A DNA stretch of 32,232 bases from an uncultured Erysipelotrichaceae bacterium (GTDB taxonomy: Bacteria > Bacillota_I > Bacilli_A > RF39 > UBA660). The DNA lies in the NCBI GenBank assembly GCA_902766545.1, contig CACXEC010000053.1, forward strand, positions 1 through 32,232, written 5' to 3'. Positions 14,040-30,393 of the stretch are shown piece after piece (position 1 is the stretch's first letter; every line of letters starts with the position of its first letter). The notes below the pieces were generated by a model. That model worked only from the letters and a program-made list of their open reading frames with translations, was not told the DNA's origin and searched no databases. The position numbers and the translations under genes are program-made.

Positions 14040-14040
14040 T

Positions 14041-14790: not shown

Positions 14791-16102
14791 GTCACTAATT
14801 GAAGATTTTGATTTTAAAACTAAAAAATCTTCTGAAATTAAAAATGATTACGATGTTTTTCCTGATAAAAAACTATTAGATGAACTAAGAAAAAAGATTA
14901 TTGAGCATTTAATTGATCAAGAGCTTCCTGAAAATAAAGATTTAAATGAATTTATTAATGAAAATATTGATGAATGCTTAGAAGGTTATGATTTAACAAA
15001 TTTAGAACGTAGTCATATATTTAATTTAATAGATGATGAAATTAATGGGTATGGTCCCATTAGTGAACTATTAAATGATAGTAATATTACAGAAATAATG
15101 GTTAATGGGCCTAAAGATGTTTATGTAGAAATAGAAGGAAAACTAATTAAAGATAATTCGATTTCTTTTATTAATGATGAACACATTATTAGAACGATGC
15201 AAAGATTAATTCAGCCTCTTGGTCGTACAATAGATTCTTCTAACCCTATGGTTGATTCAAGACTTGCTGATGGTTCAAGAATTAATGCTGTAATACCTCC
15301 TCTTAGTGTTAAGGGGCCAGTTATTACAATTCGTAAGTTTAAAAGAAATATGACTAGTATTGATGATTTACTTAGAGTTGGTTCCCTAACTGCTGAAATG
15401 GCAACATTTTTAGAGGGCGCTGTAAAGGGTAAATTAAATATAATTGTTTGCGGAGGAACTGGTAGTGGTAAAACAACTCTATTAAATATTTTAAGTAGCT
15501 TTATAGGAAATGATGAACGTATTATTACTATTGAGGATGCTGCCGAATTAAAACTTGAACAAGAACATGTTATAAGTTTAGAAACAAGAACTGTAAATTA
15601 TAACAATGGTAGTGAAGTATCTGTACGTGACTTAGTAATTAATGCCCTTCGTATGAGACCCGATCGTATTGTTGTTGGAGAATGCCGTGGAAAAGAGGCT
15701 TTTGATATGCTTCAAGCTATGAACACTGGTCATGATGGATCTCTTACAACTCTTCATGCTAATGGACCGATGGATGCTTTAAATAGATTAGAAACAATGG
15801 TTTTAATGAGCGGTATTGATATTCCAATCATGGCAATTCGTGAATATATTGAAAATGCAATTGACTTAGTTATAAATATTCAAAGAATGCATGATGGAAA
15901 AAGAAAAATAGTAAGCATTAGTGAAGTAGTTGGTATTGATAATGGTATGATAAAACTATCACCAATATTTGAATTTGTTCAAAAAGGATTAACTTCATCT
16001 GGAGAAGAAGATGGAGAATATCAAAAATGTGCTAAAAAACCATTTATTTATGAAAGATTAAAATCAAGAGGAATAACTGAAATAGAAAAAATTTTTAAAT
16101 AA
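14783..16102 (+). CDS. tadA: CpaF/TadA-family type IV pilus (type IVc) secretion ATPase
   Basis: 439 aa. Walker A GGTGSGKTT, Walker B/Asp box PDRIVVGECRG, His box GHDGSLTTLHAN. N-terminal ITEIMVNGP is typical of VirB11/CpaF ATPases. Confidence 0.9.
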   Translation: MSKSLIEDFDFKTKKSSEIKNDYDVFPDKKLLDELRKKIIEHLIDQELPENKDLNEFINENIDECLEGYDLTNLERSHIFNLIDDEINGYGPISELLNDSNITEIMVNGPKDVYVEIEGKLIKDNSISFINDEHIIRTMQRLIQPLGRTIDSSNPMVDSRLADGSRINAVIPPLSVKGPVITIRKFKRNMTSIDDLLRVGSLTAEMATFLEGAVKGKLNIIVCGGTGSGKTTLLNILSSFIGNDERIITIEDAAELKLEQEHVISLETRTVNYNNGSEVSVRDLVINALRMRPDRIVVGECRGKEAFDMLQAMNTGHDGSLTTLHANGPMDALNRLETMVLMSGIDIPIMAIREYIENAIDLVINIQRMHDGKRKIVSISEVVGIDNGMIKLSPIFEFVQKGLTSSGEEDGEYQKCAKKPFIYERLKSRGITEIEKIFK

Positions 16103-16120
16103 TAACGAAAGGAGGTTTAT

Positions 16121-17098
16121 ATGAACAAAATTGCTTTAATTCAAATAACTATTATAATTATAATACTTATTTTGACACTTAGAGTTTTAAGATTATCTAA
16201 GACTTTAAAATATAGTGAAAGAATTGCAAAATATACTGTAAATAAAAATAAAAAAGAAAGCTTATCATTAGGAGATAAATTATTAAATGTTTATATAAAT
16301 TTCCAAAATTCTATTGTAAATATTTTACAAAAATCTGTATATTTTAAAAATAAAGCGATAAAGTATGAAAGATATAGTTATATAGATAGTCCCTTAAAAT
16401 TAATTGCAAATAAATTTTTAATATCATTTTCTTTAGGAGTAGTATATATATTATCATCGTTTATTAATTTAAAATTTGATATTTTTATATTATTACTAGT
16501 AATGGTTATAGGGTATTTTATTTATAATATATACTTAATAATAGATGAAAAGAAACGTAATAAAAATATTCAAAATGATTTATCAAAGGCTATTATTATT
16601 ATGAATAATGCTTTTAAATCAGGATATAATATAACTCAAGCAATTGATTTTGTATCAAAAGATTTAAATGGCCCAATTAGTGAAGAATTTAAAAAAATCA
16701 GTAGTGATTTAAAATACGGGTTAGAGATTAAAGACGTTTTTGCCCGTTTCTATAGTAGGGTTAGAATTGAAGATGCTTTAATATTAACTAGTAGTTTAAG
16801 TTTGTTAAATATTACGGGAGGAAATTTAATTGGCATTTTTAGTTCTATTGAAAAGTCATTTACAAACCGTAAACGTTTAAGAGATGAACTAAATGCCATG
16901 ACTAGTAGTAGTAAGTTAGTATTTTATATATTATTAATTATGCCATTTATTATCATTTCAATGTTATTATTTTTAAATCCTGAGTATTACAGTCCAATAG
17001 TTCATAATCCCCTTGGAGTATTAATTTGCATATTAGCAACGATTCTTTATATCTCATATATTGCTATTATTAGAAAGATTCTGAAGGTGGATGCATGA
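16121..17098 (+). CDS. tadB: Type II secretion system F-domain platform protein, TadB-like
   Basis: 325 aa polytopic membrane protein with a cytoplasmic T2SSF-like segment (IIMNNAFKSGYNITQAIDFVSKDLNGPISEEFKKISSDLKYG). Its position after tadA fits TadB. Confidence 0.75.
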   Translation: MNKIALIQITIIIIILILTLRVLRLSKTLKYSERIAKYTVNKNKKESLSLGDKLLNVYINFQNSIVNILQKSVYFKNKAIKYERYSYIDSPLKLIANKFLISFSLGVVYILSSFINLKFDIFILLLVMVIGYFIYNIYLIIDEKKRNKNIQNDLSKAIIIMNNAFKSGYNITQAIDFVSKDLNGPISEEFKKISSDLKYGLEIKDVFARFYSRVRIEDALILTSSLSLLNITGGNLIGIFSSIEKSFTNRKRLRDELNAMTSSSKLVFYILLIMPFIIISMLLFLNPEYYSPIVHNPLGVLICILATILYISYIAIIRKILKVDA

Positions 17099-17793
17099 AA
17101 AACAGTTTTGTAGAAAAGATTTATACTAAAAAAAGTATTGAAAGAATTAAGAAAAAGAATCGTTTACTAGGAATTAAGTATAATTATGATATTAACTCAT
17201 TAATGACAAGTCATTTATTTATAAGTATATTTATTTTTATAATAATCTCTATTTTAAGTAGAAATATAATTATATCTATAATTATAACTTTAATATATTT
17301 TTGTTTTATGGAATATCTATTTTTTGATTTTAGATTAAGAAAAAGAGCTCATCTTTTAGAAAAAGAAGCGTTTTTTTACTTTCAAATATTATGTTTAACT
17401 TTAGAATCTGGAAGTAATTTAAAAGGAGCCATTGAAATAACTTGTAATAATTTAGATAATACTTTAAGTAATGAATTTAAGAAATGTATTGAGGATGTAA
17501 ATCTGGGAAAAAGTTTAAATGAAACTTTAGAAGATTTATCTCTTAGAATTCCAAGTGATGTAGTTAATAATATTATTTTAAATTTATTAGAATCTAATAT
17601 CTATGGAAATAATATGATTTCATCTTTAAATAATCAGTTATTATACTTAAATGATAAATTATTACTTGAAGCTAAAGCTAAAATAAATAAAATGCCAGTA
17701 AAAATAAGTATTGTTAGTGTTTTAATATTTGTACCATTAATAATGCTTATTATATTAGGCCCAATTATAATAACACTTATTAACAACAGTTAA
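17095..17793 (+). CDS. tadC: Type II secretion system F-domain platform protein, TadC-like
   Basis: 232 aa. T2SSF-like segment (FQILCLTLESGSNLKGAIEITCNNLDNTLSNEFKKCIEDVNLGKSLNETLEDL) flanked by TM helices. ATGA overlap with tadB. Confidence 0.7.
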   Translation: MKNSFVEKIYTKKSIERIKKKNRLLGIKYNYDINSLMTSHLFISIFIFIIISILSRNIIISIIITLIYFCFMEYLFFDFRLRKRAHLLEKEAFFYFQILCLTLESGSNLKGAIEITCNNLDNTLSNEFKKCIEDVNLGKSLNETLEDLSLRIPSDVVNNIILNLLESNIYGNNMISSLNNQLLYLNDKLLLEAKAKINKMPVKISIVSVLIFVPLIMLIILGPIIITLINNS

Positions 17794-17814
17794 GGTATAT
17801 TTAATACCTTTTTT
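17792..17814 (+). terminator. Short rho-independent terminator after tadC
   Basis: 7-bp stem aaggtat (17792-17798) / atacctt (17804-17810), 5-nt loop, TTTT. It is weak enough that read-through is plausible. Confidence 0.55.
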
Positions 17815-17815
17815 C

Positions 17816-17869: not shown

Positions 17870-20800
17870 ATGGTTGATATTAATAAAAAATATTTAACAG
17901 ATGAAGATTTTGAAAGTTTATTTACTGAGTATACTAATGGCTCAAAAAATGCTTTTAAATTAATAGTTCAAAAATCTTATGTATTAATAGATGATATTCT
18001 TAAAAGTTATGTAAGTAATGAAAAATATGACTATGAATTATTACATAAGATTTGTGAATTTGCTTTATTTGATGCAATTAAAACATATGATCCTCATAAA
18101 AGCTATAAAAATCATATAAAAATGTATATTTTATATAAAATAAAATCTTTTTTGGAAAAGAATCCTAATCCATCTATTAGTAAAGATAATACCTTAATAT
18201 TTGAAAATATTAATAAAGAATTAAAACTAAATATTACTTCAAAGGACTATTTAGACATTAGAGCAATTATTGAGCTTCAATCATCAAGAGTTAAAGTAAT
18301 TATCAAGCTTAGATATGGTTATAATGGAAATTGTTTGCCTCCAGAAGAAATAGCAAGAAAGTGCGGCTATAATCTTGATGCTGTCATCAACGCTATTAAT
18401 AATTTTAATAATCTACTTACTAAAAGATATTTAAAAGTAGAATATAAAAGTGAAGAACATAAAGAACTACCAAAAGAAAAAATATCTTTAAAAGATTCAA
18501 TATATGAATACTTCAGCGAATATACTAAAGAGGAAGTAAGATATGCGGTTGGTATTCTTCCCCTTAATTATAGAAATATTATATATTTAAAATATGGTAA
18601 TTTATTATCGGAAAATAACAATATTGATACTGATAATAATAATATAATTTATAATGAAATTATTGGTATAATTGAAAGTATTTTAATAAATTTTAGAAAA
18701 AATAAAAATAAGAAAAGTCTTTATGAATATTTCTTAGAATACTCAAAAGAAGAAGTTAAATCTGCAGTTATGCATTTACCTAAAAAGGAGAGTCGTTTAA
18801 TATACAAACGTTTTGGATATGATTTAACAAGTTTTACTTTTATTTCATCAGATGACATTGAGAAAATAAATAGTACTATAATTCCTCATATAAGATCATT
18901 ATTGAAAGATAAAAAATCATTACATCAAAAAAATATATTTGATTATTTTGCAGATTATTCTGAAGAGCAAGTTATACAAGCTATTAGTAAATTGGGAGAC
19001 AAGCAAAAAAGAATTATTTTTAGTAGATTTGGCGAAGGCTTAGATAGTAGTAATATAATTGATAGTTATGATTTAAAATTATTAGAAGAAATCATAATTC
19101 CAAGAATAAATACTATATTAAGTGAAAAATCATCATTATTTGATATAAATAATATTACTAAAGATAAATTAAAAAGTGCTTTAAAAAAATTATCCAATGA
19201 AGAACAAGTCCTTTTTTATAAGAAATTTATTAAAAAAGAATCATTAACTAGAAGTGAGTTAATTAAATTATATATTGAAATAATACCTAAACTAAAATCA
19301 TTAATTAATTCTAAAACGAACACTTGTGTTAATAAAAGATTTAAACCAATATATGATTATTTTGATGGGTTTACTATAGAAGAAGTGAATTCTGCAATTA
19401 GTAAGTTAGATGAAAAATATAAGAAAATATTGCATGCAAGATATGGTAATACTTTGGATGAATACCATCAAATACCTAGTAAAGATCGAACTTTAATTTA
19501 TAATGTAATAATTCCAAGACTAAGAAACGTTTTAAAAGGTAAAGATGTTAAAAATGACAGAAGAAAGTTAACTTTACTAGAACATTTTGATGGCTATACT
19601 TTAGAAGAAATTAAAGAAGCTATATCTAAGTTAAATGATAAAGATAAAGAAATAATATTTAAAGTATATGGAGAGTCTTTAGACGAATATCATTATATAT
19701 CTAAAGAAAATAAAAACGCATTATATACTATTAAACGCAAAATACAAAGAATTTTAAATAGTAAAAAACATAATAAATCTTTATTTGAACGAATAACCGA
19801 TTATGACGAAAGTCAAATCAGAAAAGCCATTTCTAATCTTGCGCCAAAACATCAAGAAGTGCTATATAAAAAATATGGCCGTGCTTTAAATGAATATTAT
19901 GATTTAACCAAAGAAGAAAATCAATATTTAACTTCAGTTGTTATTCCAAGACTTAAAAAAATCTTAAAAGGAAAAGCATTATTATCAACAAAGATAACCG
20001 AATTATTATCAGCTTCAACAGAAGAAATAAATCAAATAATTACTAAATTACCTTTTGAACATCAAACTATTGTTTATAAAAAGTATGGTAGGTTTCTAAA
20101 CGAATATAATAAAATAGATAAAGAAGAAAGCACAATATTTTACGGAACTATATTACCTAAAATGAAGAGAATGTTAAGTAAAAGAACTATTATTAAATAT
20201 ATTGGTGACTATTTTGATGGCTATAATATCGATGAAATAAAAAATGCTATTTCTAAACTTATTGCATCGAAACAAGAAATTATTTATAAAAAATTTGGAA
20301 TTAATTTAAATGAATCAAATCAGATACCTAGTAGTGAGCATACTATATTTAAAAGAGCAATAAAAGATATAAGAAATGTTTTAGAAGGGATAGATATTAA
20401 TCAAAGGTTTCAAACATTAATTAAAAGATTAGATGGTTATTCTTATGAAGATATAACAAAAGCGATTGGTTTTTTAGAACCAGAAAAAAGGGCTTTGTTT
20501 TATAAAAAATATGGAACATATTTAGATGAATATCATGTGATAACTAAGAAGGAAAATAGCATCATTGAAAATGCTATTGTTAGCTTAAAAAATCTATTAT
20601 CATGTAATAAAAAATCCATAAATATTTCATTAAGAGAATATTTTAAAGATTATTCTTTAGAAGAAATAAAAAATGTAATATCTAAATTAAAAACTAAAGA
20701 GCAAGAATTGTTATATTTAAAGTTTGGCGAAAACTTAGATGAATGTAATTTAATAAATAGTGAAAAAATAAAATCACTTGAAAAATTAGTTATCATAGTA

Positions 20801-22693
20801 GGAAAAAAACTAAGTGGGGAATTATCTGTTAAAGATAGAAAAATCAAATATAAAACCATATTTGACCACTTTGAAGGTTATCAAGCAGAAGATATTATAA
20901 ATGTAATAAACAGTTTAAATCCAGATGAACAAGAAATAATTTATAAAAAGTATGGATGCACATTAAATGATTATAATACTCTTAATAGAGAAGAAACAAT
21001 AAAACTATATTCAATTATCTCAAAAATGAAAAATATATTAAAACGCAAACAAGGAAAATGCGGCCGAAAATCACAAACAGTATATGAATTTTTAGGCACT
21101 GATTCAAAAGAAACAATATTATCTTTAGTCAAAAATTTAACTGATAAACAACAAAATGTTTTCTTTAAAAAATATGGCCATAATCTAGATGAAAATAATA
21201 CTTTGAATTCTAGCGAAAACTCTTTATTTTATGGAATTGTTATACCCAATATGAAGAGACTTGTTAATAAAGAACCAGAAAAACACCGTGGACCTAAGAA
21301 TAAGCATTTTAGTGATTATTTTAAAGAATATACAAAAGAAGAATTATTAAGTGCAATTGCATTATTAAGCATAGAAGAGCAAGAAATCATTTTCAAACGA
21401 TTTGGTAAAAATTTAGATGAAATAAATACTATTAATAAAAATGAAACAATAAAGTTACATAATACAATCATTTCACATTTAAGAAAATTACTAAGTGGAG
21501 AAAAAGTACAAACTAGAAAAAGAAAAACATTTATTTCATATTTTGAAGGATACACAATAGATGAAATAATAAATGCAATTAGTGTTTTAGATGAAAAATA
21601 CCAAGAATTAATATATAAAAAGTATGGACACACTTTAGATGAGTATAATAAAGTTTCTAATAATGAAAATTGTATTATTAGTCAAAATATTATACCTAAA
21701 TTAAAATTAGTATTAAATGGTGAATTCCCTGTTAGGAAAATGAAAAAGATTTGGTATTATTTTGAAGAATATGCCAAAGAAGAAGTAATTAATGCCATAA
21801 GTAAATTATCAAACGAGGATCAAGAACTTATTCACAAAGTATTTGGTTTAGATTTAAATGAAATAAATAATTATACTGATACAGAAAAAACTAAAATAAC
21901 TAGGAGTTTATTTCCAAAAATAAAAAGATTATTATTAAATAATGACCATGTTAATAGTAATTTTATACCATTCTTTGATTATTTTAACGGATATAGTAAA
22001 GAAGAAGTATTATTGGCAATAAAAAGTTTAAGTAAAAAACACAAAGATATATTATTTAAAAGATATGGTCAAAACTTAATGGAACAAAATACAGCAAGTC
22101 ATAATGAAAAATCTATAATTAGACAGACAATTATTCCTAAGTTAAAAAAAGTGCTAAATAGAAAGATAATTAGACCAAGTAGTTTTTATGAACTTATTGG
22201 TTTATCTAGAGAAGAATTTTTAAGAAAGATAGAATTCTTATCGCCTGAAGAAAGAGAATCTTTGTATAAATATTTTGGCTATGATTTAGATAAAATAGAA
22301 TTCATTTCTAAAGATGAAGATTTAAAGACTGAAGTCGAAAATATAATTATTCCTAAAATTAGAAACATGGATATAAGTAAAGAAGTATTTAATTTTGATG
22401 CTTTAAGTCCAATTATTGAAAGTATCTTAAAAGAAGTTCCTAACGTAACAAAACTAGAAATAATCATTTTTATTTTAAGAATAGGTTTAGAAGCTAATGG
22501 ACCATATGATATGGATATGATAAGTGAGTATTTTAAATTATCACCATATGATATTAATCGTATAACTCTTAAAGTACTAAATGAAATAAGTGTTAATTTA
22601 GAAACTATTTATGATTATATTGCGAAAGGATTATCAAAAACAGAAGAAGTAAAACCATTAATGATTAATCCTATAGAAGGAGATAATAAATAA
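17870..22693 (+). CDS. Giant sigma-70-like protein 1. Degenerate region 2 plus region 4 head, 18 tandem ~70-aa region-4-like repeats, terminal HTH-like module.
   Basis: 1607-aa uninterrupted ORF. Aa 1-100 follow the sigma region 2 layout (NAFKLIVQKSYVLIDDILKSY...ELLHKICEFALFDAIKTYDP), but the WWIRQ signature is replaced by ILYKI. Aa 139-185 look like region 4 (RVKVIIKLRYGYNGNCLPPEEIARKCGYNLDAVINAINN). Repeats start at aa 211. No TM or signal peptide. Confidence 0.8.
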   Translation: MVDINKKYLTDEDFESLFTEYTNGSKNAFKLIVQKSYVLIDDILKSYVSNEKYDYELLHKICEFALFDAIKTYDPHKSYKNHIKMYILYKIKSFLEKNPNPSISKDNTLIFENINKELKLNITSKDYLDIRAIIELQSSRVKVIIKLRYGYNGNCLPPEEIARKCGYNLDAVINAINNFNNLLTKRYLKVEYKSEEHKELPKEKISLKDSIYEYFSEYTKEEVRYAVGILPLNYRNIIYLKYGNLLSENNNIDTDNNNIIYNEIIGIIESILINFRKNKNKKSLYEYFLEYSKEEVKSAVMHLPKKESRLIYKRFGYDLTSFTFISSDDIEKINSTIIPHIRSLLKDKKSLHQKNIFDYFADYSEEQVIQAISKLGDKQKRIIFSRFGEGLDSSNIIDSYDLKLLEEIIIPRINTILSEKSSLFDINNITKDKLKSALKKLSNEEQVLFYKKFIKKESLTRSELIKLYIEIIPKLKSLINSKTNTCVNKRFKPIYDYFDGFTIEEVNSAISKLDEKYKKILHARYGNTLDEYHQIPSKDRTLIYNVIIPRLRNVLKGKDVKNDRRKLTLLEHFDGYTLEEIKEAISKLNDKDKEIIFKVYGESLDEYHYISKENKNALYTIKRKIQRILNSKKHNKSLFERITDYDESQIRKAISNLAPKHQEVLYKKYGRALNEYYDLTKEENQYLTSVVIPRLKKILKGKALLSTKITELLSASTEEINQIITKLPFEHQTIVYKKYGRFLNEYNKIDKEESTIFYGTILPKMKRMLSKRTIIKYIGDYFDGYNIDEIKNAISKLIASKQEIIYKKFGINLNESNQIPSSEHTIFKRAIKDIRNVLEGIDINQRFQTLIKRLDGYSYEDITKAIGFLEPEKRALFYKKYGTYLDEYHVITKKENSIIENAIVSLKNLLSCNKKSINISLREYFKDYSLEEIKNVISKLKTKEQELLYLKFGENLDECNLINSEKIKSLEKLVIIVGKKLSGELSVKDRKIKYKTIFDHFEGYQAEDIINVINSLNPDEQEIIYKKYGCTLNDYNTLNREETIKLYSIISKMKNILKRKQGKCGRKSQTVYEFLGTDSKETILSLVKNLTDKQQNVFFKKYGHNLDENNTLNSSENSLFYGIVIPNMKRLVNKEPEKHRGPKNKHFSDYFKEYTKEELLSAIALLSIEEQEIIFKRFGKNLDEINTINKNETIKLHNTIISHLRKLLSGEKVQTRKRKTFISYFEGYTIDEIINAISVLDEKYQELIYKKYGHTLDEYNKVSNNENCIISQNIIPKLKLVLNGEFPVRKMKKIWYYFEEYAKEEVINAISKLSNEDQELIHKVFGLDLNEINNYTDTEKTKITRSLFPKIKRLLLNNDHVNSNFIPFFDYFNGYSKEEVLLAIKSLSKKHKDILFKRYGQNLMEQNTASHNEKSIIRQTIIPKLKKVLNRKIIRPSSFYELIGLSREEFLRKIEFLSPEERESLYKYFGYDLDKIEFISKDEDLKTEVENIIIPKIRNMDISKEVFNFDALSPIIESILKEVPNVTKLEIIIFILRIGLEANGPYDMDMISEYFKLSPYDINRITLKVLNEISVNLETIYDYIAKGLSKTEEVKPLMINPIEGDNK
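18500..22372 (+). repeat. In-frame tandem array of 18 coding repeats (~210-225 nt / ~70-75 aa each)
   Basis: Units start at IYEYFSEYTKEEV, LYEYFLEYSKEEV, IFDYFADYSEEQV ... FYELIGLSREEF. Each contains L-x4/5-[QKE]-x-hh-x-K-[KR]-[YF]-G-x-x-L-[DN]-E and ...IIP[KR]hKxhL. The repeats are diverged at the DNA level. Confidence 0.85.
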
Positions 22694-25600
22694 TGGATAA
22701 ATTAAAGATATTAAACTATATTAATAATAATTTAAAAAATAGTTCAGAGTTTAAAATAGTTTTTGATAATATTAGAAAATTATGTAAGTTTTTAGAAGAT
22801 ATTGATCCAGATGATATTCCATCACTTCTTGATGAATCAGAAGTTTTATATAACTATTTAAAAGTTTTGATTAAATTAGGAACTGGAAGAAATAAAAAAA
22901 CTCTAATTAAAGAGTATAGTGATAATGAAGTATTAAATACTTTAATAGATGCATATTTTGCAAAAGAAAACCAGTCAATAAATGCATGGCTTGAAAATGT
23001 ACAAGGAAAACTTTTAACGGATAGAGAAATAGAAGAACTTAGCATTAAGGCTAAAGCTGGAGATGTAAATGCTAGAAATACCATAATTGAAGCTAATTTA
23101 GGATTAATAAGATCTATTGCTGGTGTTTATAGTCAAAAAACTACTAAATTATCTTTTGATGAACTATTCCAAGAAGGCTTTTTTGGTTTAGAAAAAGCCG
23201 TAATGAAATATGACCCTAGTAAAAGTAAGTTTTCAACTTATGCTATTTGGTGGATAAGACAAGCAATAACAAGGTATATTTATGATAATGATCGTACAGT
23301 TAGAATTCCAGTTCATATGTTGGAAAAAATTAATAAGATGTTAAGAGTAAGGTCTAAACTTATTGCCGAATTAAACAGAGAAGTAACGTCTGAAGAAATA
23401 GCGAGTGCTATGGGTAAAGAGCCTGAAGAAATAGAATTTATGTTAGAGATAAGTACTCGTACAACTAGTTTAGATCAAAAAATAGATGATGAATCAGATG
23501 CTTCAAGCTTAAGTGATTTTATTCCAGATGATACTACATCTTACTTTGCAGATGATATTATAGATAAAGCCCATGGCTCTTTAGCTTGGGATATTGCTAA
23601 AAAAGTGCTAAGTAAAAGAGAGTATCAAGTACTATGTTATCGCTTTGGCAAATTTGATGGAAACGTATATACACTTGAAGAAACAGCTAATTTAATGGGT
23701 GGAAACAATTCTGTTACCAGAGAAAGAATTCGTCAGATAGAAGCAAAGGCCATACGTAAATTAAGTAGACCAAATATTAAAAATATACTTGATGAAAACA
23801 ATATGGAGAAAGTAAAAAATAATCCATTAACAATGGAAGAACCGCCTAAAGCAAAAGTTGCTATCGATTCAAGAACACTATTTGAAAGATTACCCGAGTT
23901 TACTGAAGAAGAGATTATTACGGGTTTAATGGAATTATCAGAGTATCAAAGAGGTATTTTATATCAAAAGTTTGGCTCTAATTTAAGAGAAGTTAATATA
24001 GTATCTAATACTAATGAAAATTATATTAAAAGTATTTTAAGAAAACTATCCGAATTATTAAGTGATATAAAATATAATCATGGTAAATCTTCTATTATCG
24101 ACTATTTTGTGGGTTATTCATTGGTAAGTATTAAATATGCTATAACATTTCTTACTTCTAAAGAAAGAGCGTTAATATATCAAAGATTTGGTAAGAACTT
24201 AGATGAATTCAATGAAGTAAATAATTTTTGCCGGGTAAAATTACAAACAATTATAATACCTAAAATGCTTGAGAAGCTTAATAAAAAAGTTAGTCCGGTT
24301 GTTGAAAAAAAATTAGAGATAATTTTTAGGGATGTTTCTAAAGATAAAATCATTAAAGCAATAAATTTTCTTTCTAATAATGAACAAAGAATAATATACG
24401 AAAGATTTGGTAAGAACTTAGATGAATTAAACAATATTAATGGTGGGGATATATTTGAACTATATGCAAATATTATTCCAAGATTAAAACAAATTTTAAA
24501 TGATGCATATTTAATGCAAGATGGTTACTCAATTCTATCTCATTTTGAGGGATATGGGGAAGAAGATGTTATTAATGCCTGCAATGAATTATTAAAAAAA
24601 GAAAAAGAAGCTTTACATGAAAAATTTGGTAATGATTTAAAACAATTAATGATTGTAAATGAAGAAACTTATAACAAAATATATAATATGATAATCCCCA
24701 AAATTCAAAAGATTTTAAATGGTGAAATAAAACATAATGGCAGATACTTTAAGCCAATAATGTCTTACTTTGAAGGCCATACAAAAGAAGAAGTGCTAGA
24801 GGCTATAGGTAGACTTGAGGAAAAATATCAAATTATTATTTATAAAAGATATGGAACAAACTTAGATATAAGTTATAATAGATTAAAAAAAGATTTAGAT
24901 GAAAGTTATGAGTTAACTACAAGCGAAATAAGAACGCTTCGTAATACGATTATTCCTAAAATTCAAAAGATTTTAAATGGTGAAAAAATTTATGCTGGTA
25001 ATCGTTTTAAGCCATTTGTGTCATATTTTGAAGGATATACCAAAGAAGAAATACTTGCAGCTATTGGCAAGCTTGATTCTAAGTGTCAAGATATAATATT
25101 TAGAAGATATGGACGCACTTTAGATGAGCAAAATGAAATACCTAAAAAGGAAATGGAAAAGATTTATAGTTCAATAATTCTAAGTATTAATAAAGCATTA
25201 AAAGGAGAAAAAACTCATATTGGACGTTTTAAACCTTTAATGTCATATTTTGAAGAATATACTAAAGAGGAATTATTATTAGCTATAAGTAATCTTGAAC
25301 AATCAGACCAAGATTTAATTTATAAAAGATATGGGCAAGATTTAGAAGAACAAAATACTGTATCTCAAGAAGATTTACGATATATACGAAGAATTATTAT
25401 TCCAAAATTAGAAGAATTAATTTGCCATAAACCTGTTAAAAGCAAGAATCTATTTGAATTATTAAATAAAAGTAAGGAAGAAGCATTAAGGATTATTGAA
25501 ATTATGCTAACAAAAGAAGAAAGAGAAGATTTATATAAATACTATGGTTATGATCTAGAAGAACCTAAAGAAGTTCCGTTAGATGAAGATTTTAGAAAAT

Positions 25601-25965
25601 ATGTGGAAGAAAAAATAATTCCTAAACTTAATCAAGATAATAATTTAGAATTACCACCAATAGGTTTAAGAAAAGCGCTTGAAATAGCTGATATGTTAGC
25701 TCAGCTAAATCTTTTAATGGGCTTTAAAAAAGAAATTATTATTGTGTTATCTCTAAGATTAGGTATTAATCAGGAAAGAACTTTTACAGTAAAAGAAGTT
25801 TCTGATATATTAGGAATTAGTGAAGAAGAGGTAAATTCTATTACTCATATAGTACTAACAAAATATCAAAAAATATTTAATGTTGTTTTTGATAATATCA
25901 TGCAACTACTTGGAAATAAAAAAGCTTCTAATATATCTACTGATTTATCAAATAATCCTTTCTAA
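22693..25965 (+). CDS. Giant sigma factor 2. Complete SigA-like (group 1/2) sigma-70 core fused to 8 tandem region-4-like repeats and a terminal HTH-like module.
   Basis: 1090 aa. Aa ~96-360 align almost residue by residue with B. subtilis SigA. Shared blocks are [75 protein letters not shown], and region 4 [14 protein letters not shown]...[34 protein letters not shown]. The start overlaps the upstream stop (TAATG). Confidence 0.85.
   Translation: [1090 protein letters not shown]
23878..25638 (+). repeat. In-frame tandem array of 8 coding repeats (~70-86 aa each)
   Basis: Units start at [91 protein letters not shown] and [12 protein letters not shown]. They are the same family as the array in the upstream gene. 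Confidence 0.85.
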
Positions 25966-26017: not shown

Positions 26018-26198
26018 TGTAAGAAACTAGATTATGTGCAAATTAGAAGTTATCATATTGCCAATTTTAGATGATACTTATTAAGAAAATTTGCGAAATG
26101 TTTTAAAAATGAAAAAGAGAAGTAAATGTTATTTTACACTTCTAGTTTCTTACACTTATGTTAAATAAATAAAACCATATTTAAAATGGTTTTATTTT
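26018..26198 (+). ncRNA. Candidate ~180-nt structured RNA (unclassified), or alternatively a structured 3' UTR of the sigma gene pair
   Basis: A 14-bp perfect inverted repeat tgtaagaaactaga (26018-26031) / tctagtttcttaca (26141-26154) encloses a 57-nt hairpin at 26038-26094. That hairpin has a 7-bp stem gcaaatt/aatttgc and a 9-bp stem aag(t)tatcat/atgatactt. An A-rich segment follows, then an intrinsic terminator. No convincing ORF. Confidence 0.35.
26171..26198 (+). terminator. Rho-independent terminator
   Basis: 8-bp stem aaaaccat (26171-26178) / atggtttt (26186-26193), 7-nt loop, followed by aTTTT. Confidence 0.65.
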
Positions 26199-26199
26199 G

Positions 26200-26208
26200 T
26201 GGTAAAAT
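26200..26208 (+). promoter_or_regulatory. Extended -10 element upstream of the FtsW-family gene
   Basis: tggtaaaat matches TGnTAAAAT. It lies 19 nt upstream of the ATG at 26227 (SD gtaggtg). Confidence 0.4.
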
Positions 26209-26226: not shown

Positions 26227-27381
26227 ATGAAAAGCACATTAAGTAAAATGGACAAAGCGTTATTTGTTTTTATGCTATTATATAGTGTTTTAGGACTTAT
26301 AATGATATTTAGTGCTTCATCTATAACTGCTGTTTTATATAACCGAGTAGAAGAGTCATATTTTTTTAAAAAGCAATTTATTTTCGTAGTTTTAATGTGG
26401 GCGATAGGTCTTGGGTTTATTATTAACTTTCCAACATCTAAATATAAAAAATTAGCACCCCTTGGTATGGTTTTAATTACTGCTGCGCTATTTCTTCTTA
26501 TTCCATATGGAAAAGTTACTAATAGTGCAAGGAGTTGGTATAATTTAGGATTTTTTAATTTTCAGCCTAGTGAATTTGTTAAATCGATTATGATAGTATT
26601 TTTAGCAGTATATTTTGAAAGAATAATTGGCGAAAAAGATTATAAAATATCTAAAATAATGTTCCCATTTATTATAATATTGATCGCCTGTGGTTTAATT
26701 GCTTATCAGCCTGATTTAGGAACAGCTGTAATTGTTGCTGGTATAGCCGGATTAATATTTTTAGTTCTACCAATTAATACATTAACTATGAAAAAAATGA
26801 AAATAGGAGGAATAATAACTGCAATAGTTGTTTTTGCATTTATATTTATTGGTGGGAATACCTTAAATGCTGAACAATCTAGTCGTTTAACTTATAAGTC
26901 ACCATGTACTAGATATACCCAAAAAACTGGATATCAAGTATGTAATGGCTTTATAGCAATTAGTAATGGTGGATTATTTGGAGTTGGATTAGGTAACTCT
27001 ACTCAAAAATACTTATATTTACCGGAAGCTCATACTGACTTTATTTTTCCAATTATTGTAGAAGAATTAGGCGCAATAATAGGTTCAATTATAATTATAG
27101 GATTTGTCTGGTTATTATTTAGGCTTTTAAGTATTGCTAAAACTGCCAGTACCATCAGAGGATCTATAATTGCATATGGGACATTTTGTTATATATTGCT
27201 TCATTTATTAATTAATTTTATGGGAATTCTGGCATTAATACCCTTAACCGGAGTTCCAGTCCCATTTCTATCATATGGTGGTTCATTTTATATAAATCTT
27301 GCATTTCTTTTATTCTTAAATCAAAGAGTAGTAATAGAAAAAAATAGTAATAAAACAAAAGAATTATTAAGGAGTATATAA
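26227..27381 (+). CDS. FtsW/RodA/SpoVE-family peptidoglycan glycosyltransferase (SEDS protein)
   Basis: 384 aa polytopic membrane protein. SEDS hallmarks are present: LGLIMIFSASS, FQPSEFVKS, QPDLGTA, LPEAHTDFIF, PLTGVPVPFLSYGGS. Confidence 0.85.
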   Translation: MKSTLSKMDKALFVFMLLYSVLGLIMIFSASSITAVLYNRVEESYFFKKQFIFVVLMWAIGLGFIINFPTSKYKKLAPLGMVLITAALFLLIPYGKVTNSARSWYNLGFFNFQPSEFVKSIMIVFLAVYFERIIGEKDYKISKIMFPFIIILIACGLIAYQPDLGTAVIVAGIAGLIFLVLPINTLTMKKMKIGGIITAIVVFAFIFIGGNTLNAEQSSRLTYKSPCTRYTQKTGYQVCNGFIAISNGGLFGVGLGNSTQKYLYLPEAHTDFIFPIIVEELGAIIGSIIIIGFVWLLFRLLSIAKTASTIRGSIIAYGTFCYILLHLLINFMGILALIPLTGVPVPFLSYGGSFYINLAFLLFLNQRVVIEKNSNKTKELLRSI

Positions 27382-27983
27382 TGAATAATAAAGGAATGAG
27401 TATAGTTGAAATAATAGTATCTGTTGCCCTTGTATCAATTGTATTAATATTTATGATTAATTTACTAATAACAGTTAAAAGTAGTAGTGATACTTCACAA
27501 AATAAGTCTGATGCTCTAATTAATCGTGCATTAATAGTTAAAGAAATAGAAAAAGATTTTGTGGACTATGAGCTTAGTGGAGTATATAGTTGTAATACTA
27601 ATTCAATAACTGGTGGAGTTAGAGCAATTTTACCAAGTACAGCGAAAAACATTTATTGTCTAAGATTTACATTTAATAATATTACAGACTCAGGCTATTT
27701 AATTCAATATGTTGACAATAATAAAAGTATAATTGGGTACAAAAGAGGTAGCAATCAAATAGTTAGAGAATCAGCTTATCCAATGAATCCATCTGATAAT
27801 AATTCTAGAGGAAGCATTGAATCCTCCTGCTCAAGTAATAGCTATGAGAACTGTGCTATAAAAATAGTAATGCCAATTAAAGATGAAGAAAATAATAACT
27901 ATAGCATTAGACTGACATACATATATAAAAGAAACAATTTCACATATTCAAATATTAATAGTAATGGTTTTGTATCATATTAA
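27381..27983 (+). CDS. Prepilin-type N-terminal domain protein (minor pseudopilin-like)
   Basis: 200 aa. MNNKG|MSIVEIIVSVALVSIVLIFMINLLI has Gly-1, Glu+5 and a hydrophobic helix. The start overlaps the FtsW-family stop (TAATG). The C-terminal domain is unassignable and contains 5 Cys. Confidence 0.7.
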   Translation: MNNKGMSIVEIIVSVALVSIVLIFMINLLITVKSSSDTSQNKSDALINRALIVKEIEKDFVDYELSGVYSCNTNSITGGVRAILPSTAKNIYCLRFTFNNITDSGYLIQYVDNNKSIIGYKRGSNQIVRESAYPMNPSDNNSRGSIESSCSSNSYENCAIKIVMPIKDEENNNYSIRLTYIYKRNNFTYSNINSNGFVSY

Positions 27984-28049: not shown

Positions 28050-28958
28050 ATGCAAAAACGATTTAGAACATATCATAAATATAATTATAAAAAGTATAAA
28101 TATCTTATATATATAATGCTTGTTATTATAGGATTTATTTTTACATTAAAAGCATTATTTAAAAACTTTAAAGATAGTGTAAATTATGATAATCTACTAT
28201 CGATAGGTAGTAATAACATCATTAAAGATTATAGTATTTTAAATTTATTAAATATTAGTTTATCTACACCAGATAATATTTTAAGCTTATCGTTTAGTGA
28301 TATTAATAAAAAAAATAATATAAACCATAAAGAAAACATACCAGTGATTAAAGAAACAAAACAAAATGAACCTATAGTGTATATTTATAATACCCATCAA
28401 ACAGAAGAATATGATGCAGGACTTTTAAAAAACTATAATATTACACCAACTGTTTATATGGCAGCTAATATTTTGAAGAAAAAACTAGCTAATTTAAATA
28501 TAACCTCAATCGTAGAAGATGAAAACATTGGTCTTGTCTTAAAAGAACATAATTGGAAATACAAAGATAGTTACTATGCTAGTAGGTTATGGCTTGAAAA
28601 AATTAAAACGACTAGTCCAAGTATCAAATATTATATTGATTTACATCGAGATAGCATCACAAGAAGTACTATAATAAATGATATGTCATACGCTAAATTA
28701 ATGTTTGTAATTGGTATGAATCATGATAATTATAAAGAAAATGAAAAATTAGTTTTAAAATTAAACGACTATCTAAAAGAAAATTATCCCGGTTTAATGC
28801 GAGATATCTTATATGCCAAAAAAAATAAATTTAACCAAGATTTTAATTCTAATACTATCTTAGTTGAAGTAGGAGGCCCCAAAAATAATATTGAAGAAGT
28901 TCAAAATAGTGTAAATGCTTTAGCAGATGCTATATCACATGTTATAAGGAATCGTTAA
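28050..28958 (+). CDS. spoIIP: Stage II sporulation protein P
   Basis: 302 aa with an N-terminal TM anchor. SpoIIP signature IYNTHQTEEY (compare IYHTH..E.Y), IDLHRDS, and the C-terminal LVEVGG. Confidence 0.8.
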   Translation: MQKRFRTYHKYNYKKYKYLIYIMLVIIGFIFTLKALFKNFKDSVNYDNLLSIGSNNIIKDYSILNLLNISLSTPDNILSLSFSDINKKNNINHKENIPVIKETKQNEPIVYIYNTHQTEEYDAGLLKNYNITPTVYMAANILKKKLANLNITSIVEDENIGLVLKEHNWKYKDSYYASRLWLEKIKTTSPSIKYYIDLHRDSITRSTIINDMSYAKLMFVIGMNHDNYKENEKLVLKLNDYLKENYPGLMRDILYAKKNKFNQDFNSNTILVEVGGPKNNIEEVQNSVNALADAISHVIRNR

Positions 28959-29293
28959 TGGAAGAGGTTAAGGTAAAAAAAATAAGTAAAATTAAAATAT
29001 TAATATACTTATTAATTAGTATTTTTGTTTGTCTTTATTTTGCTGGAAAAACAGGTTATTATGAGAATAAAATTCATAAAGATACAGTTCTAACTAAAGA
29101 AGCAATTATAGAGTTTGAAAAAGATGTTGCTGATGGTAAAGCCGTCGATTTAAAAGATTATATTAACCCGAATGATATTGATTTTCAAAATAAATACTCA
29201 ACTTTAGGGTATAATATTAGTAACTCGATTGATAAATTATTAAACGATGGAGTAAACTATTTAGTTGAAATACTAAAAGCTTTATTTACCTAA
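28958..29293 (+). CDS. Small membrane protein (YqxA/DUF3679-like by position and size)
   Basis: 111 aa with one N-terminal TM helix. TAATG-coupled to spoIIP, as yqxA is in Bacillus. The family call rests on synteny and size only. Confidence 0.45.
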   Translation: MEEVKVKKISKIKILIYLLISIFVCLYFAGKTGYYENKIHKDTVLTKEAIIEFEKDVADGKAVDLKDYINPNDIDFQNKYSTLGYNISNSIDKLLNDGVNYLVEILKALFT

Positions 29294-29326
29294 AATTGTG
29301 TGTTAGAATATTTTTAGGTGTCAATT

Positions 29327-30331: not shown

Positions 30332-30345
30332 ATTAAAAAAAGTAC

Positions 30346-30374
30346 TTGAATAAAAAGAGAAAATATAATATAAT
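30346..30374 (+). promoter_or_regulatory. Sigma-A promoter of the tRNA gene
   Basis: TTGAAT (30346-30351), 17-nt spacer, TATAAT (30369-30374). It lies 20 nt upstream of the mature tRNA 5' end. Confidence 0.65.
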
Positions 30375-30393
30375 CTTTTTGTTCAGTTAATTT

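What the first reader, a model, noticed from the sequence alone, without database searches (positions are those of the whole stretch)
17870..25965. Two adjacent giant sigma-70-like proteins with 18 and 8 tandem repeats that look like degenerate sigma region 4 modules
Two head-to-tail genes share a stop/start overlap (TAATG at 22691-22695). They encode 1607-aa and 1090-aa K/E/I/N-rich proteins with no signal peptide or TM helix. Each begins with a sigma-70-type domain and continues, in frame and without stops, into a tandem array of ~70-75-aa units (nt 18500-22372 and 23878-25638). The approximate unit consensus is h-x-x-[YF]-F-x-G-Y-[TS]-x-E-E-h-x-x-A-I-x-x-L-x4-[QKE]-x-h-h-[YF]-K-[KR]-[YF]-G-x-x-L-[DN]-E-(7-9 aa)-E-(6-8 aa)-I-I-P-[KR]-h-[KR]-x-h-L. 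The block L-x5/6-hh-x-x-[KR]-[FY]-G has the same spacing as the region 4.1 helix of the genuine region 4 in the second protein ([14 protein letters not shown], aa 306-319) and of B. subtilis SigA (LTDREENVLRLRFG). The following TL[DE]E ... IIPKhKxhL can be laid over TLEE...[15 protein letters not shown] (the 4.2 HTH). Each unit therefore looks like a degenerate region 4 plus one extra helix, giving 26 copies in total. Sigma-70 family proteins are normally about 200-600 aa with a single region 4, and I know of no described sigma with a poly-region-4 tail. Possible roles are all inference: multivalent DNA or activator binding, RNAP clustering, or an auto-inhibitory or tethering domain.
Basis: partly seen in the sequence, partly recalled or inferred. 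Interest (0 to 1): 0.92.

Follow-up and report, generated by a model that had tools for sequence, protein, structure and literature searches.

The report
Giant sigma factors with sigma-region-4-derived repeats
Two coupled genes encode very large RNA-polymerase sigma-type proteins whose tails are strings of 18 and 8 small modules copied from sigma's own promoter-binding domain. They belong to an undescribed family in uncultured gut bacteria, and its function is unknown.

Summary
ORFs 17870-22693 (1607 aa) and 22693-25965 (1090 aa) overlap in TAATG and carry 18 and 8 tandem units of about 72 aa. The units are about 31% identical as protein and 60-79% as DNA, so this is not an assembly artefact.

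- **Protein 2** has a complete RpoD-like core, with regions 2, 3 and 4 all above Pfam cut-offs.
- **Protein 1** has only a degenerate region 2 + region 4 head, detectable by profile comparison alone.
- **Both proteins** end in a region-4-like domain (shown for protein 2 and the family profile) whose −35-contact residues are replaced by acidic or neutral ones.

Four tests tie the repeat to region 4:
- The summed Pfam score is above cut-off.
- hhalign gives 91.6% probability, about 12 sd above shuffles.
- The top 14 PDB sequence hits are all region 4 (best E 0.004).
- Most Foldseek hits are region 4, though none is significant.

The first helix of the helix-turn-helix is lost. AlphaFold gives independent four-helix beads on flexible linkers.

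The family is large: 948 clusters at E≤1e-10, with up to 21 units. All 19 reference-genome hits are uncultured Bacilli, "Tenericutes" or other Firmicutes MAGs, several labelled as from animal or human gut. Family genes often sit in tandem, sometimes beside rpoD. No family model or paper was found.

Function is inferred: most likely a region-4-mimic protein-interaction tether rather than 26 DNA readers.

The parts
17792..17815 (+). Weak hairpin plus U-run after tadC. It may separate the two-gene unit from the upstream Tad pilus operon.
   Evidence: The RNA fold is -5.7 kcal/mol (z -1.8) and is followed by UUUUUU. This is suggestive only.
17870..22693 (+). Gene 1 (1607 aa): degenerate sigma-like head, 18 repeat units and a C-terminal domain that aligns with the family's region-4-like tail.
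17870..18484 (+). Protein 1 aa 1-205: degenerate two-domain (region 2 + region 4, no region 3) sigma-like head.
   Evidence: There is no Pfam sigma hit. hhalign against the sigma cores of family members gives 96.6%, E 7e-10. Smaller relatives such as L003 are hit both by this head's HMM and by an RpoD HMM at r2 and r4. 'FSTYAxWWIRQ' is replaced by 'YKNHIKMYILYKIK'.
18485..22387 (+). Array of 18 region-4-derived four-helix units (aa 206-1506). Net charge +39, pI 9.2.
   Evidence: Supported.
22388..22690 (+). Protein 1 C-terminal tail (aa 1507-1607, acidic). It matches the family's C-terminal region-4-like domain but gives no Pfam hit on its own.
   Evidence: It is hit by the A4 C-terminal HMM. 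The A4 profile matches region 4 at 97.1% by hhalign and at E 1.5e-8 against PDB sigma4. Scanned alone, this tail has no Pfam family even at E≤10. pI is 4.55.
22691..22695 (+). TAATG stop/start overlap, which suggests translational coupling. A GAAGGAG ribosome-binding site lies at 22677-22683.
   Evidence: Sequence read.
22693..25965 (+). Gene 2 (1090 aa): complete RpoD-like sigma, 8 repeat units and a C-terminal region-4-like domain.
   Evidence: Supported.
23086..23298 (+). Protein 2 sigma region 2 (aa 132-202).
   Evidence: Pfam Sigma70_r2 scores 58.2 bits against a cut-off of 24.
23323..23532 (+). Protein 2 sigma region 3 (aa 211-280).
   Evidence: Pfam Sigma70_r3 scores 61.6 bits against a cut-off of 25.3.
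23605..23763 (+). Protein 2 genuine sigma region 4 (aa 305-357), including [16 protein letters not shown].
   Evidence: Pfam Sigma70_r4 scores 60.2 bits for the whole protein and 40.2 bits for the core alone, against a cut-off of 24.1. Motif positions were checked.
23863..25653 (+). Array of 8 region-4-derived units (aa 391-987). Net charge -6, pI 6.0. Unit 5 carries an 11-aa insertion.
   Evidence: Supported.
25654..25962 (+). Protein 2 C-terminal complete region-4-like HTH domain (aa 988-1090). Its recognition helix reads SEEEVNSI in place of TRERIRQI.
   Evidence: Pfam Sigma70_r4 gives E 6.7e-5 and 22.8 bits, just below the 24.1 cut-off. hhalign gives 97.1%. The family profile matches PDB sigma4 at E 1.5e-8.
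26167..26204 (+). AT-rich hairpin plus U-run, a likely terminator of the two-gene unit.
   Evidence: The RNA fold is -10.1 kcal/mol with a 12-bp stem and z -2.3.

Best explanation
**What is shown**
- The two genes form a translationally coupled pair from an undescribed branch of the sigma-70 family. The branch is found in uncultured low-GC Firmicutes.
- Protein 2 is a complete RpoD-type sigma with the standard promoter-recognition motifs.
- Protein 1 has a degenerate two-domain (region 2 + region 4) sigma-like head.
- After the sigma part, each protein continues as a flexible string of small, independently folding four-helix modules.
- The modules arose by repeated duplication of sigma region 4. 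They gained a short N-terminal helix and lost the first helix of the helix-turn-helix.
- Each protein ends in one more domain of the family's region-4-like type. Its −35-contacting arginines and glutamine are replaced by acidic or neutral residues.

**What is inferred**
- The DNA-reading parts are gone, while the region-4 scaffold is kept. That scaffold includes the L-x3-E-x2-I-x-x-[KR]-[YF]-G helix and the basic positions of the last helix.
- The modules are therefore most likely region-4 mimics used for protein contacts and tethering, not 26 promoter readers.
- The tail would project from genuine region 4, which sits on the RNA polymerase beta-flap at the upstream edge of the promoter. It could do one or more of the following:
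  - hold proteins that normally dock on region 4 (the beta-flap tip, anti-sigma-like or activator-like partners);
  - fold back to regulate the sigma, as C-terminal extensions of some ECF sigmas do;
  - join protein 1 to protein 2 through their conserved terminal unit and C-terminal domain.
- Protein 1 is probably a non-initiating partner or decoy of protein 2.
For: **Architecture and sigma core**
- Domain layout.
- The protein 2 core matches RpoD_Cterm over 234 of 238 positions and is 47-51% identical to ordinary RpoD proteins.

**Repeat is related to region 4**
-, as set out under the first-reader verdict.

**C-terminal domain is related to region 4 but lacks DNA contacts**
- Homology.
- The aligned recognition helix is SEEEV.. 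against TRERIRQ.

**Beads on a string**
- A single unit has pLDDT 90.6 and four helices.
- A three-unit block has pLDDT 92.1 but pTM only 0.50, with dips at the linkers.

**Conservation pattern**
- Conserved columns are mostly core hydrophobics and helix caps.
- The ends of the array are positionally conserved (units 1-5 and the last unit) while the interior turns over.
- The terminal units of proteins 1 and 2 are each other's best match at 47%.

**Pairing and clustering**
- TAATG coupling links the two genes.
- The same protein-1-type then protein-2-type pair occurs in a contig only 38% identical.
- Tandem paralogues occur in L001, L015, L016 and L020, sometimes right after rpoD.

**Family size and absence from phages**
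- 948 clusters at E≤1e-10, and 99 of the top 164 end in the C-terminal domain.
- No family member was found in IMG/VR with the pattern used.

**Known precedents for the ideas**
- PhyR sigma mimicry and regulatory C-terminal extensions of ECF sigmas (titles and abstracts of PMC4598750 and PMC7730460).
Against: - No partner protein is identified, and no neighbouring gene is conserved across loci.
- No unit surface was shown to be conserved, so the modules could be inert spacers.
- The array of protein 1 is strongly basic (+39). Several region-4 basic positions are kept (KK before YG, PK-KK in the last helix). Non-specific nucleic-acid binding therefore cannot be excluded.
- The homology to region 4 is only moderately strong: no single unit passes Pfam, and Foldseek gives E>1 and TM 0.40.
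- Expression, binding to core polymerase, and whether the genome has a separate housekeeping sigA were not testable here.
Confidence: 0.45

Rival explanations
1. Multivalent nucleic-acid binder. Each unit, with its K/R-rich linker, binds DNA or RNA non-specifically or with a weak AT preference. The sigma would then coat or wrap upstream DNA, acting as a built-in UP-element reader or a nucleoid-associated tether.
For: - The array of protein 1 has net charge +39 and pI 9.2.
- Conserved basic positions correspond to basic positions of region 4, and the linkers are enriched in K/R.
- The genome is about 25% GC.
- The tail leaves region 4 towards upstream DNA; this rests on established holoenzyme structures.
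Against: - The helix-turn-helix is broken, with a loop in place of its first helix.
- The recognition-helix contact residues are not conserved.
- The array of protein 2 is slightly acidic (net -6) and the C-terminal domain of protein 1 has pI 4.55. Basicity is therefore not a family property.
Confidence: 0.2
2. Passive spacer or ruler. The units have no ligand of their own. They only set the distance or entropic reach between the sigma core and the conserved terminal unit plus C-terminal region-4-like domain, which is the sole functional element of the tail.
For: - The AlphaFold block model looks like beads on a string.
- Conservation is confined mainly to core positions.
- The interior of the array turns over and unit number varies from 1 to 21, while the ends and the C-terminal domain are conserved.
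Against: - Maintaining up to 21 well-folded, long-diverged (~31% identity) domains as mere linker is costly.
- Units 1-5 are positionally conserved between orthologues, which suggests individual roles.
- Many family members lack the C-terminal domain (65 of 164), although some of these may be fragments.
Confidence: 0.2
3. The repeat is an unrelated alpha-helical repeat, and its resemblance to region 4 comes from convergence or composition.
For: - No single unit reaches a Pfam domain threshold; only 3 of 26 units hit Sigma70_r4, with best E 0.03.
- Foldseek gives best E 1.1 and TM 0.40.
- With the 26-unit profile alone, DnaJ and designed armadillo proteins scored as well as sigma.
Against: - The hhalign score is about 12 sd above column-shuffled and reversed controls.
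- With the 114-unit profile, the top 14 PDB hits are all region 4 and align over its whole length.
- The repeat HMM picks out the genuine region 4 of a canonical RpoD (L016).
- The arrays are always attached to, or clustered with, sigma genes and end in a clear region-4 homologue.
Confidence: 0.1
4. Assembly artefact, or decaying or selfish repeat expansion with no function.
For: - The window is probably a metagenome contig, since all detectable relatives come from metagenome assemblies or MAGs.
- Some relatives are called either as split or as fused genes in different assemblies.
Against: - DNA copies are only 60-79% identical, so collapse or expansion during assembly is not expected.
- Both frames are open for 4.8 and 3.3 kb in 25% GC DNA, where stop codons are frequent.
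- Independent assemblies hold relatives of similar size and the same gene pair.
Confidence: 0.03

Closest known systems
Group 1/2 sigma-70 factors (RpoD/SigA and RpoS-like)
   Same: Protein 2 has regions 1.2-4 with RpoD-type region 2.3/2.4 and 4.2 motifs ([29 protein letters not shown]). It is 47-51% identical to ordinary RpoD proteins.
   Different: - It scores below every NCBIfam RpoD or RpoS equivalog cut-off (225 bits against 354 or more), and no region 1.1 is detected.
- It carries a 730-aa tail of 8 region-4-derived units plus a second region-4-like domain.
- Known sigma-70 proteins end at region 4.
ECF sigma factors with regulatory C-terminal extensions (for example ECF41, ECF42, and ECF56 SigG1 with a SnoaL_2 domain; PMC7730460 abstract)
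   Same: Protein 1 and small relatives such as L003 have a minimal region 2 + region 4 head followed by a C-terminal extension. An extension acting on its own sigma is an established idea.
   Different: - The extension here is a tandem array derived from region 4 itself, not a SnoaL, TPR or zinc-type domain.
- Protein 1 does not reach the ECF superfamily model cut-off (33.3 bits against 42.9, and that match lies in the repeats).
PhyR sigma-like domain (sigma-factor mimicry; PMC4598750)
   Same: A sigma-derived domain that has lost its promoter function and serves as a protein-binding decoy. This is the closest precedent for region-4 mimic modules and for the degenerate head of protein 1.
   Different: - PhyR has one sigma-like domain fused to a receiver domain and works with the anti-sigma NepR in Alphaproteobacteria.
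- Here there is no receiver domain and no NepR-like neighbour, and there are up to 21 copies.
Pfam Sigma70_r4 / Sigma70_r4_2 domains
   Same: The unit keeps the region 4.1 pattern L-x3-[ED]-x2-[IVL]-[IL]-x-x-[KR]-[YF]-G and a final amphipathic helix with K/R at the positions of ALRKLR.
   Different: - It is 7-10 residues shorter between the G and the last helix.
- The first HTH helix is modelled as a loop.
- There is an extra short N-terminal helix.
- The −35-contact residues are absent.
- TM-score to region-4 structures is only 0.40.

Membership tests
Sigma-70 family (protein 2) | Regions 2, 3 and 4 detected above curated thresholds | tested here: met
   Pfam r2 58.2 bits (cut-off 24), r3 61.6 (25.3) and r4 60.2 (24.1). 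TIGR02937 scores 116 bits against 42.9.
Sigma-70 family (protein 2) | Binds core RNA polymerase and directs promoter-specific initiation | not testable with these tools
   This needs biochemistry. Only the conserved motifs can be read from the sequence.
Housekeeping RpoD/SigA equivalog (protein 2) | Score above the NCBIfam equivalog cut-off, and region 1.1 present | tested here: not met
   RpoD_Cterm scores 224.7 bits against 354, and PRK09210 scores 221 against 572. There is no Sigma70_r1_1 or r1_2 Pfam hit. The gene is not in a dnaG-sigA context.
Sigma-70 family (protein 1 head, aa 1-205) | Region 2 and region 4 detectable | tested here: inconclusive
   There is no Pfam hit even at E≤10. hhalign against family sigma cores gives 96.6%, covering r2 and r4. 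Relatives are hit by both the RpoD HMM and the protein-1-head HMM. The region 2.3 aromatic motif is not conserved.
ECF sigma (protein 1) | TIGR02937 sigma70-ECF superfamily cut-off reached by the sigma part | tested here: not met
   The score is 33.3 bits against 42.9, and the matched stretch (aa 504-581) lies in the repeats.
Pfam Sigma70_r4 / r4_2 (repeat unit) | Sequence match to the family model | tested here: inconclusive
   The whole-protein summed scores pass (48.1 against 25.7, and 40.1 against 24.1) but no single stretch passes. Of 26 units scanned alone, 3 hit r4 with best E 0.03. Profile-level evidence is positive.
Pfam Sigma70_r4 / r4_2 (repeat unit) | Intact helix-turn-helix (region 4.2) with −35-contact residues | tested here: not met
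   There is a 7-10 residue deletion. AlphaFold models a loop at residues 38-48. The aligned recognition positions are not basic or conserved. TM-score to sigma4 is 0.40.
Sigma region 4 (C-terminal domain) | Homology to region 4 over the full domain | tested here: met
   The family profile matches PDB sigma4 at E 1.5e-8. hhalign gives 97.1%. Protein 2's tail alone gives Pfam r4 E 6.7e-5 and 22.8 bits, just under the 24.1 cut-off; protein 1's tail alone gives no Pfam hit.
Sigma region 4 (C-terminal domain) | Conserved DNA-contact residues of the recognition helix (R-E-R-I-R-Q) | tested here: not met
   The aligned residues are S-E-E-E-V-N-S in protein 2, and the family consensus is I-S-E-E-E-V.
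PhyR-type sigma mimic | Sigma-like domain fused to a receiver domain, with a NepR-type anti-sigma partner | tested here: not met
   There is no Response_reg hit in either protein and no such neighbour.
Anti-phage MZA system sigma (MzaA) | Score near the model cut-off and MZA partner genes nearby | tested here: not met
   NCBIfam MzaA scores 201 bits against 800. PADLOC MzaA scores 104 bits on the sigma core only. The neighbours are Tad pilus and FtsW genes.

The most novel reading that the evidence does not exclude
These proteins may define a new way of organising transcription. A sigma factor would carry up to 21 region-4 decoy modules that each engage a region-4 ligand (beta-flap tips of other polymerases, or anti-sigma or activator-like proteins). 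One molecule would then cluster several RNA polymerases or act as a high-capacity sponge for regulators. The sigma-less or degenerate paralogue (protein 1) would serve as the matching scaffold. This would be a lineage-specific transcription hub in uncultured gut Bacilli.
Probability: 0.2. Interest if true: 0.85.

Novelty: new variant of a known kind. Interest (0 to 1): 0.68.

Why it matters
Sigma-70 proteins are among the best-studied bacterial proteins, and their domain plan (regions 1-4, ending at region 4) is regarded as fixed.

**What this family adds.** It comprises hundreds of sequence clusters in which region 4 has been duplicated up to about 21 times into a new HTH-less module. A second region-4-like domain caps the protein.

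**Why that is useful.**
- It would be a new type of sigma extension built from sigma's own interaction hub.
- It is restricted to uncultured gut Bacilli and "Tenericutes"-type lineages whose transcription is unstudied.
- It gives a concrete object for testing how the protein-docking surface of region 4 can be reused.
- It supplies a new domain model for annotation. Family members are currently labelled 'hypothetical protein' or generic 'sigma-70 family'.

Tried and rejected
**Searches that failed or found nothing**
- The search for related loci with the broad unit alignments A2 and A1 failed because no stretch was conserved enough.
- Protein 1 alone found no relative among the GTDB representative genomes, so the source species is not represented.
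- Exact look-ups of both window proteins found no record, so the sample of origin and the taxonomy of the window remain unknown.
- An IMG/VR scan with the unit pattern found no relative. Foldseek against BFVD gave no significant hit. PHROGs gave only the sigma core and weak hits to families of unknown function. A phage origin is not supported.
- PADLOC and NCBIfam matched MzaA only through the generic sigma core, so the defence-system reading was rejected.
- Four literature searches found no description of a multi-region-4 or giant sigma.

**Tests that were uninformative**
- The PDB sequence search with the 26 window units alone was inconclusive: designed armadillo proteins, DnaJ and sigma scored alike. 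It only became informative with the 114-unit profile.
- The consensus promoter scan gave 86 sites against 76±7 expected, so it says nothing in this AT-rich DNA.

**Ideas considered and dropped**
- I looked for a conserved neighbour that might be a partner. Recurring neighbours were P-type ATPases with ArsR, ClpB-like AAA proteins and ABC transporters. These look like lineage synteny, not a functional link. Only other sigma genes recur meaningfully.
- The Tad pilus operon upstream is not conserved next to relatives, so a link between pili and this sigma was dropped.
- A rigid solenoid was considered. It is not favoured because pTM is 0.50 despite pLDDT 92.

Full report
**1. The observation**

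The window is about 25% GC and nearly all its genes are on the + strand. ORFs 17870-22693 (1607 aa) and 22693-25965 (1090 aa) are open throughout. They overlap in TAATG at 22691-22695, and a GAAGGAG ribosome-binding site lies 9 nt before the second ATG.

Weak hairpin-plus-U-run structures lie just after the upstream tadC gene and about 200 nt after the second gene. The pair therefore looks like its own two-gene transcription unit.

An HMM seeded on the [YF]-G motif finds 18 units in protein 1 (aa 206-1506) and 8 in protein 2 (aa 391-987), each with E between 1e-15 and 1e-31. The period is about 72-75 aa.

- Units are about 31% identical on average, within and between the two proteins.
- At DNA level the copies are 60-79% identical, and Tandem Repeats Finder reports no array of the unit period.
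- Assembly collapse or expansion is therefore not a concern.
- No hydrophobic segment reaches transmembrane level.

**2. The non-repeat parts**

*Protein 2.* It has a complete RpoD-type core.
- Pfam regions 2, 3 and 4 are all far above cut-off.
- NCBIfam RpoD_Cterm is matched over 234 of 238 positions.
- The core is 47-51% identical to ordinary RpoD proteins from many phyla.
- It has the canonical [13 protein letters not shown] and [16 protein letters not shown] motifs.
- It falls below every RpoD or RpoS equivalog cut-off, and no region 1.1 or 1.2 is detected. It is a diverged RpoD-like paralogue, not demonstrably the housekeeping sigma.

*Protein 1.* Its first 205 aa give no Pfam sigma hit at all.
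- An alignment with its three closest relatives matches the sigma cores of family members at 96.6% (E 7e-10). It aligns regions 1.2/2 and 4 and skips region 3.
- Smaller relatives such as L003 (440 aa) are hit both by an RpoD HMM (at r2 and r4 separately) and by the protein-1-head HMM.
- Protein 1 therefore has a degenerate two-domain sigma-like head in which the aromatic region-2.3 motif is replaced.

- Protein 2's tail hits Pfam Sigma70_r4 at E 6.7e-5 (22.8 bits, cut-off 24.1); protein 1's tail gives no Pfam hit on its own.
- A 12-sequence family alignment that includes both tails matches genuine region 4 at 97.1% by hhalign.
- It matches region 4 of RpoD/SigA structures at E 1.5e-8.
- Its recognition helix reads S-E-E-E-V-x-x where sigma has T-R-E-R-I-R-Q. 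The −35-contact residues are gone.

**3. Is the unit a region-4 derivative?**

Four tests that do not presuppose the answer agree.

- *Pfam.* Protein 1's whole-protein scores for Sigma70_r4_2 (48.1 bits) and Sigma70_r4 (40.1 bits) exceed the cut-offs, summed from many weak partial matches to the first 20-30 profile positions. No single unit passes.
- *hhalign.* A 114-unit family-wide profile against 11 genuine region-4 sequences gives 91.6% probability and score 33.6 over 51 columns. One hundred column shuffles of either profile give 9±2 with a maximum of 17.7, and reversed profiles give about 8.
- *PDB sequence search.* The same profile against all 177,635 distinct PDB sequences returns region 4 of SigA, RpoD, FliA or RpoS as the top 14 hits (best E 0.0041). 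The alignments span the whole of region 4.
- *Foldseek.* The AlphaFold model of one unit (pLDDT 90.6; helices at residues 6-10, 15-24, 27-37 and 49-67) has no significant PDB match (best E 1.1, TM 0.40). Most of the listed hits are nevertheless region-4 chains.

In addition, the unit HMM picks out the true region 4 of a canonical 369-aa RpoD in locus L016.

The alignments agree on the correspondence:
- unit helix 2 matches region-4 helix 1;
- unit helix 3, ending in [KR]-[YF]-G, matches the ...LR-F-G helix of region 4.1;
- unit helix 4 matches the recognition helix.

Between the G and the last helix the unit is 7-10 residues shorter. hhalign deletes the TLEEIG helix, while HMMER deletes the preceding loop and lines up L-D-E with T-L-E-E. 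AlphaFold models this stretch as a loop.

So the unit descends from region 4 but is no longer a helix-turn-helix. The aligned recognition positions are neither basic nor conserved. I put the residual chance of convergence at about 10%.

**4. Shape of the array**

A three-unit block with a 39-row alignment gives pLDDT 92.1 but pTM 0.50, with confidence dips at the two linkers. The units are confident independent domains with undefined mutual orientation, that is, beads on a string rather than a rigid solenoid.

Conserved columns are mainly core hydrophobics and a helix cap (Y-S/T-K-E-E).

The array of protein 1 is basic (+39, pI 9.2) but that of protein 2 is slightly acidic (-6, pI 6.0).

**5. 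The family**

*Size.* The word-indexed search found only 20 relatives. The exhaustive profile search found 1562 cluster representatives at E≤1e-3 for the whole 1.8-billion-protein library, 948 at ≤1e-10 and 234 at ≤1e-30. Each carries up to 21 units.

*Architectures among the 164 best.*
- 55 are sigma core followed by units.
- 9 are units followed by sigma core.
- 100 have no RpoD-type core; these include protein-1-type proteins and fragments.
- 99 end in the C-terminal region-4-like domain.
- The median is 6 units.

*Names and hosts.*
- The only names attached are 'sigma-70 family RNA polymerase sigma factor' or 'hypothetical protein' from Bacilli MAGs.
- A pattern scan of one genome per GTDB species gave 19 loci. 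All are uncultured MAGs, most labelled Bacilli, Tenericutes, Mollicutes, Erysipelotrichaceae, Firmicutes or Clostridium sp. (one is labelled Muribaculaceae); isolate names point to Hadza human gut, rabbit and roe-deer rectum samples.
- No relative was found in IMG/VR with the pattern used.
- The window's own species is not among the GTDB representatives. Its sporulation genes (spoIIP, ylbD, spoVE/ftsW-type) mark it as a spore-forming Firmicute.

*Gene neighbourhoods.*
- The closest relative of protein 1 (P0002, 38% identity) is followed 10 nt later by a protein-2-type gene with a true sigma core, 7 units and the same terminal unit. The gene pair is therefore conserved.
- Tandem family genes also occur in L001 (five sigma-like genes in a row, two of them with 21 and 18 units), L015, L016 (canonical rpoD followed by three family genes) and L020.
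- Apart from other sigma genes, no neighbour is conserved. The Tad pilus operon upstream in the window is not found next to relatives.

*Array evolution.* Between orthologues, units 1-5 and the last unit are collinear while interior units are shuffled. The terminal units of proteins 1 and 2 are each other's best match.

**6. How it most likely works**

*Shown.*
- The sigma parts are a full RpoD-like sigma (protein 2) and a degenerate sigma-like head (protein 1).
- The tail modules descend from region 4 but have no HTH and are flexibly linked.
- A region-4-like cap lacks the DNA-contact residues.
- The two genes are coupled.

*Inferred.*
- Region 4 is sigma's main protein-docking hub. From established structural work, it binds the beta-flap tip, anti-sigmas, and class II activators or appropriators.
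- Modules that keep its scaffold but lose its DNA-reading elements are most simply read as region-4 mimics for protein contacts or tethering.
- They may regulate their own sigma, capture region-4 ligands, or link proteins 1 and 2 through the conserved terminal cassette.
- Precedents are PhyR sigma mimicry and regulatory C-terminal extensions of ECF sigmas (PMC4598750, PMC7730460).

I give this reading 0.45. Descent from region 4 and the architecture taken alone I rate at about 0.85-0.9. The rivals are:
- non-specific nucleic-acid binding, 0.2;
- a passive spacer that positions the C-terminal domain, 0.2;
- an unrelated helical repeat, 0.1;
- an artefact, 0.03.

**7. Novelty**

Nothing in Pfam, NCBIfam, PHROGs or PADLOC models the unit. 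Four full-text searches found no description of it.

These are sigma-70 family members with a new region-4-derived repeat domain and a new architecture, so I rate the finding a new variant of a known kind. It would surprise transcription specialists, but its function is open and every carrier is uncultured. I set interest at 0.68.

Noticed in passing
window 13316-17793: A Tad/Flp-type pilus operon lies directly upstream of the giant sigma pair. It comprises a TadE-like gene, an unknown 128-aa ORF, a TadZ/ParA-like ATPase, a CpaF/T2SSE ATPase and two T2SSF (TadB/TadC) genes. The host is a spore-forming, 25% GC Firmicute. The operon is not conserved next to relatives of the sigma genes.
   Followed up: partly
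window 4562-7727 and 27381-27983: Four genes carry prepilin N-methylation motifs (4562-5026, 5057-5485, 6436-7071, 7068-7727). They are interrupted by an AP-endonuclease-2 / xylose-isomerase-like TIM-barrel ORF (5439-6422, GTG start) that overlaps the preceding pilin gene. A further weak ComGE-like pilin lies at 27381-27983.
   Followed up: no
window 130-1341 (ORF open to base 1): A 403-aa ORF lies immediately upstream of gyrA, where gyrB might be expected. It has no Pfam or NCBIfam hit. It has BLAST relatives on two contigs that also carry giant-sigma family genes (L009 2-400 and L020 2893-4884).
   Followed up: no
window 9964-10836 (- strand): This is the only sizeable minus-strand ORF that does not lie inside another gene (290 aa, TTG start). 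It sits between the PBP2-type gene and efp and has no family hit.
   Followed up: no
L001 4162-20382 (GCA_017435485.1, Bacilli MAG): Five sigma-related genes lie in a row. They are a 381-aa region-2 + YlxM-like protein, a 595-aa protein with 3 units, a 949-aa full sigma with 3 units, and then 1864-aa and 1568-aa proteins with 21 and 18 units and no sigma core.
   Followed up: partly
L016 4011-11618: A canonical 369-aa rpoD (regions 1.1-4) is immediately followed by three family genes of 871, 587 and 404 aa. This suggests that the family arose by duplication next to rpoD.
   Followed up: partly
proteins P0040, P0185 and P0186: One 90%-identity cluster holds a 1620-aa 'hypothetical protein', a 447-aa 'sigma-70 family' protein with the adjacent NCBI accession, and a 2081-aa protein, about the sum of the two. 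The same locus thus seems to be called split in some assemblies and fused in another. This could be a frameshift, programmed recoding or an assembly or calling difference.
   Followed up: no
P0008 and 8 other representatives: Some family members have the reverse order, with the unit array at the N-terminus and the RpoD-type core at the C-terminus. In these the array cannot act simply as an extension leaving region 4.
   Followed up: no
window 24862-24894 (protein 2 unit 5, about aa 724-734): One unit carries an 11-residue insertion ([11 protein letters not shown]) right after the YG motif. This is the same place where the units are shortened relative to region 4.
   Followed up: no
window 28050-31298: Downstream genes include a spoIIP-family gene (28050-28958), an ATP-grasp/RimK-like ORF (29318-30331), tRNA-Arg(TCT) at 30394-30470 and a small RelA/SpoT-like HD-domain ORF (30771-31298).
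   Followed up: no
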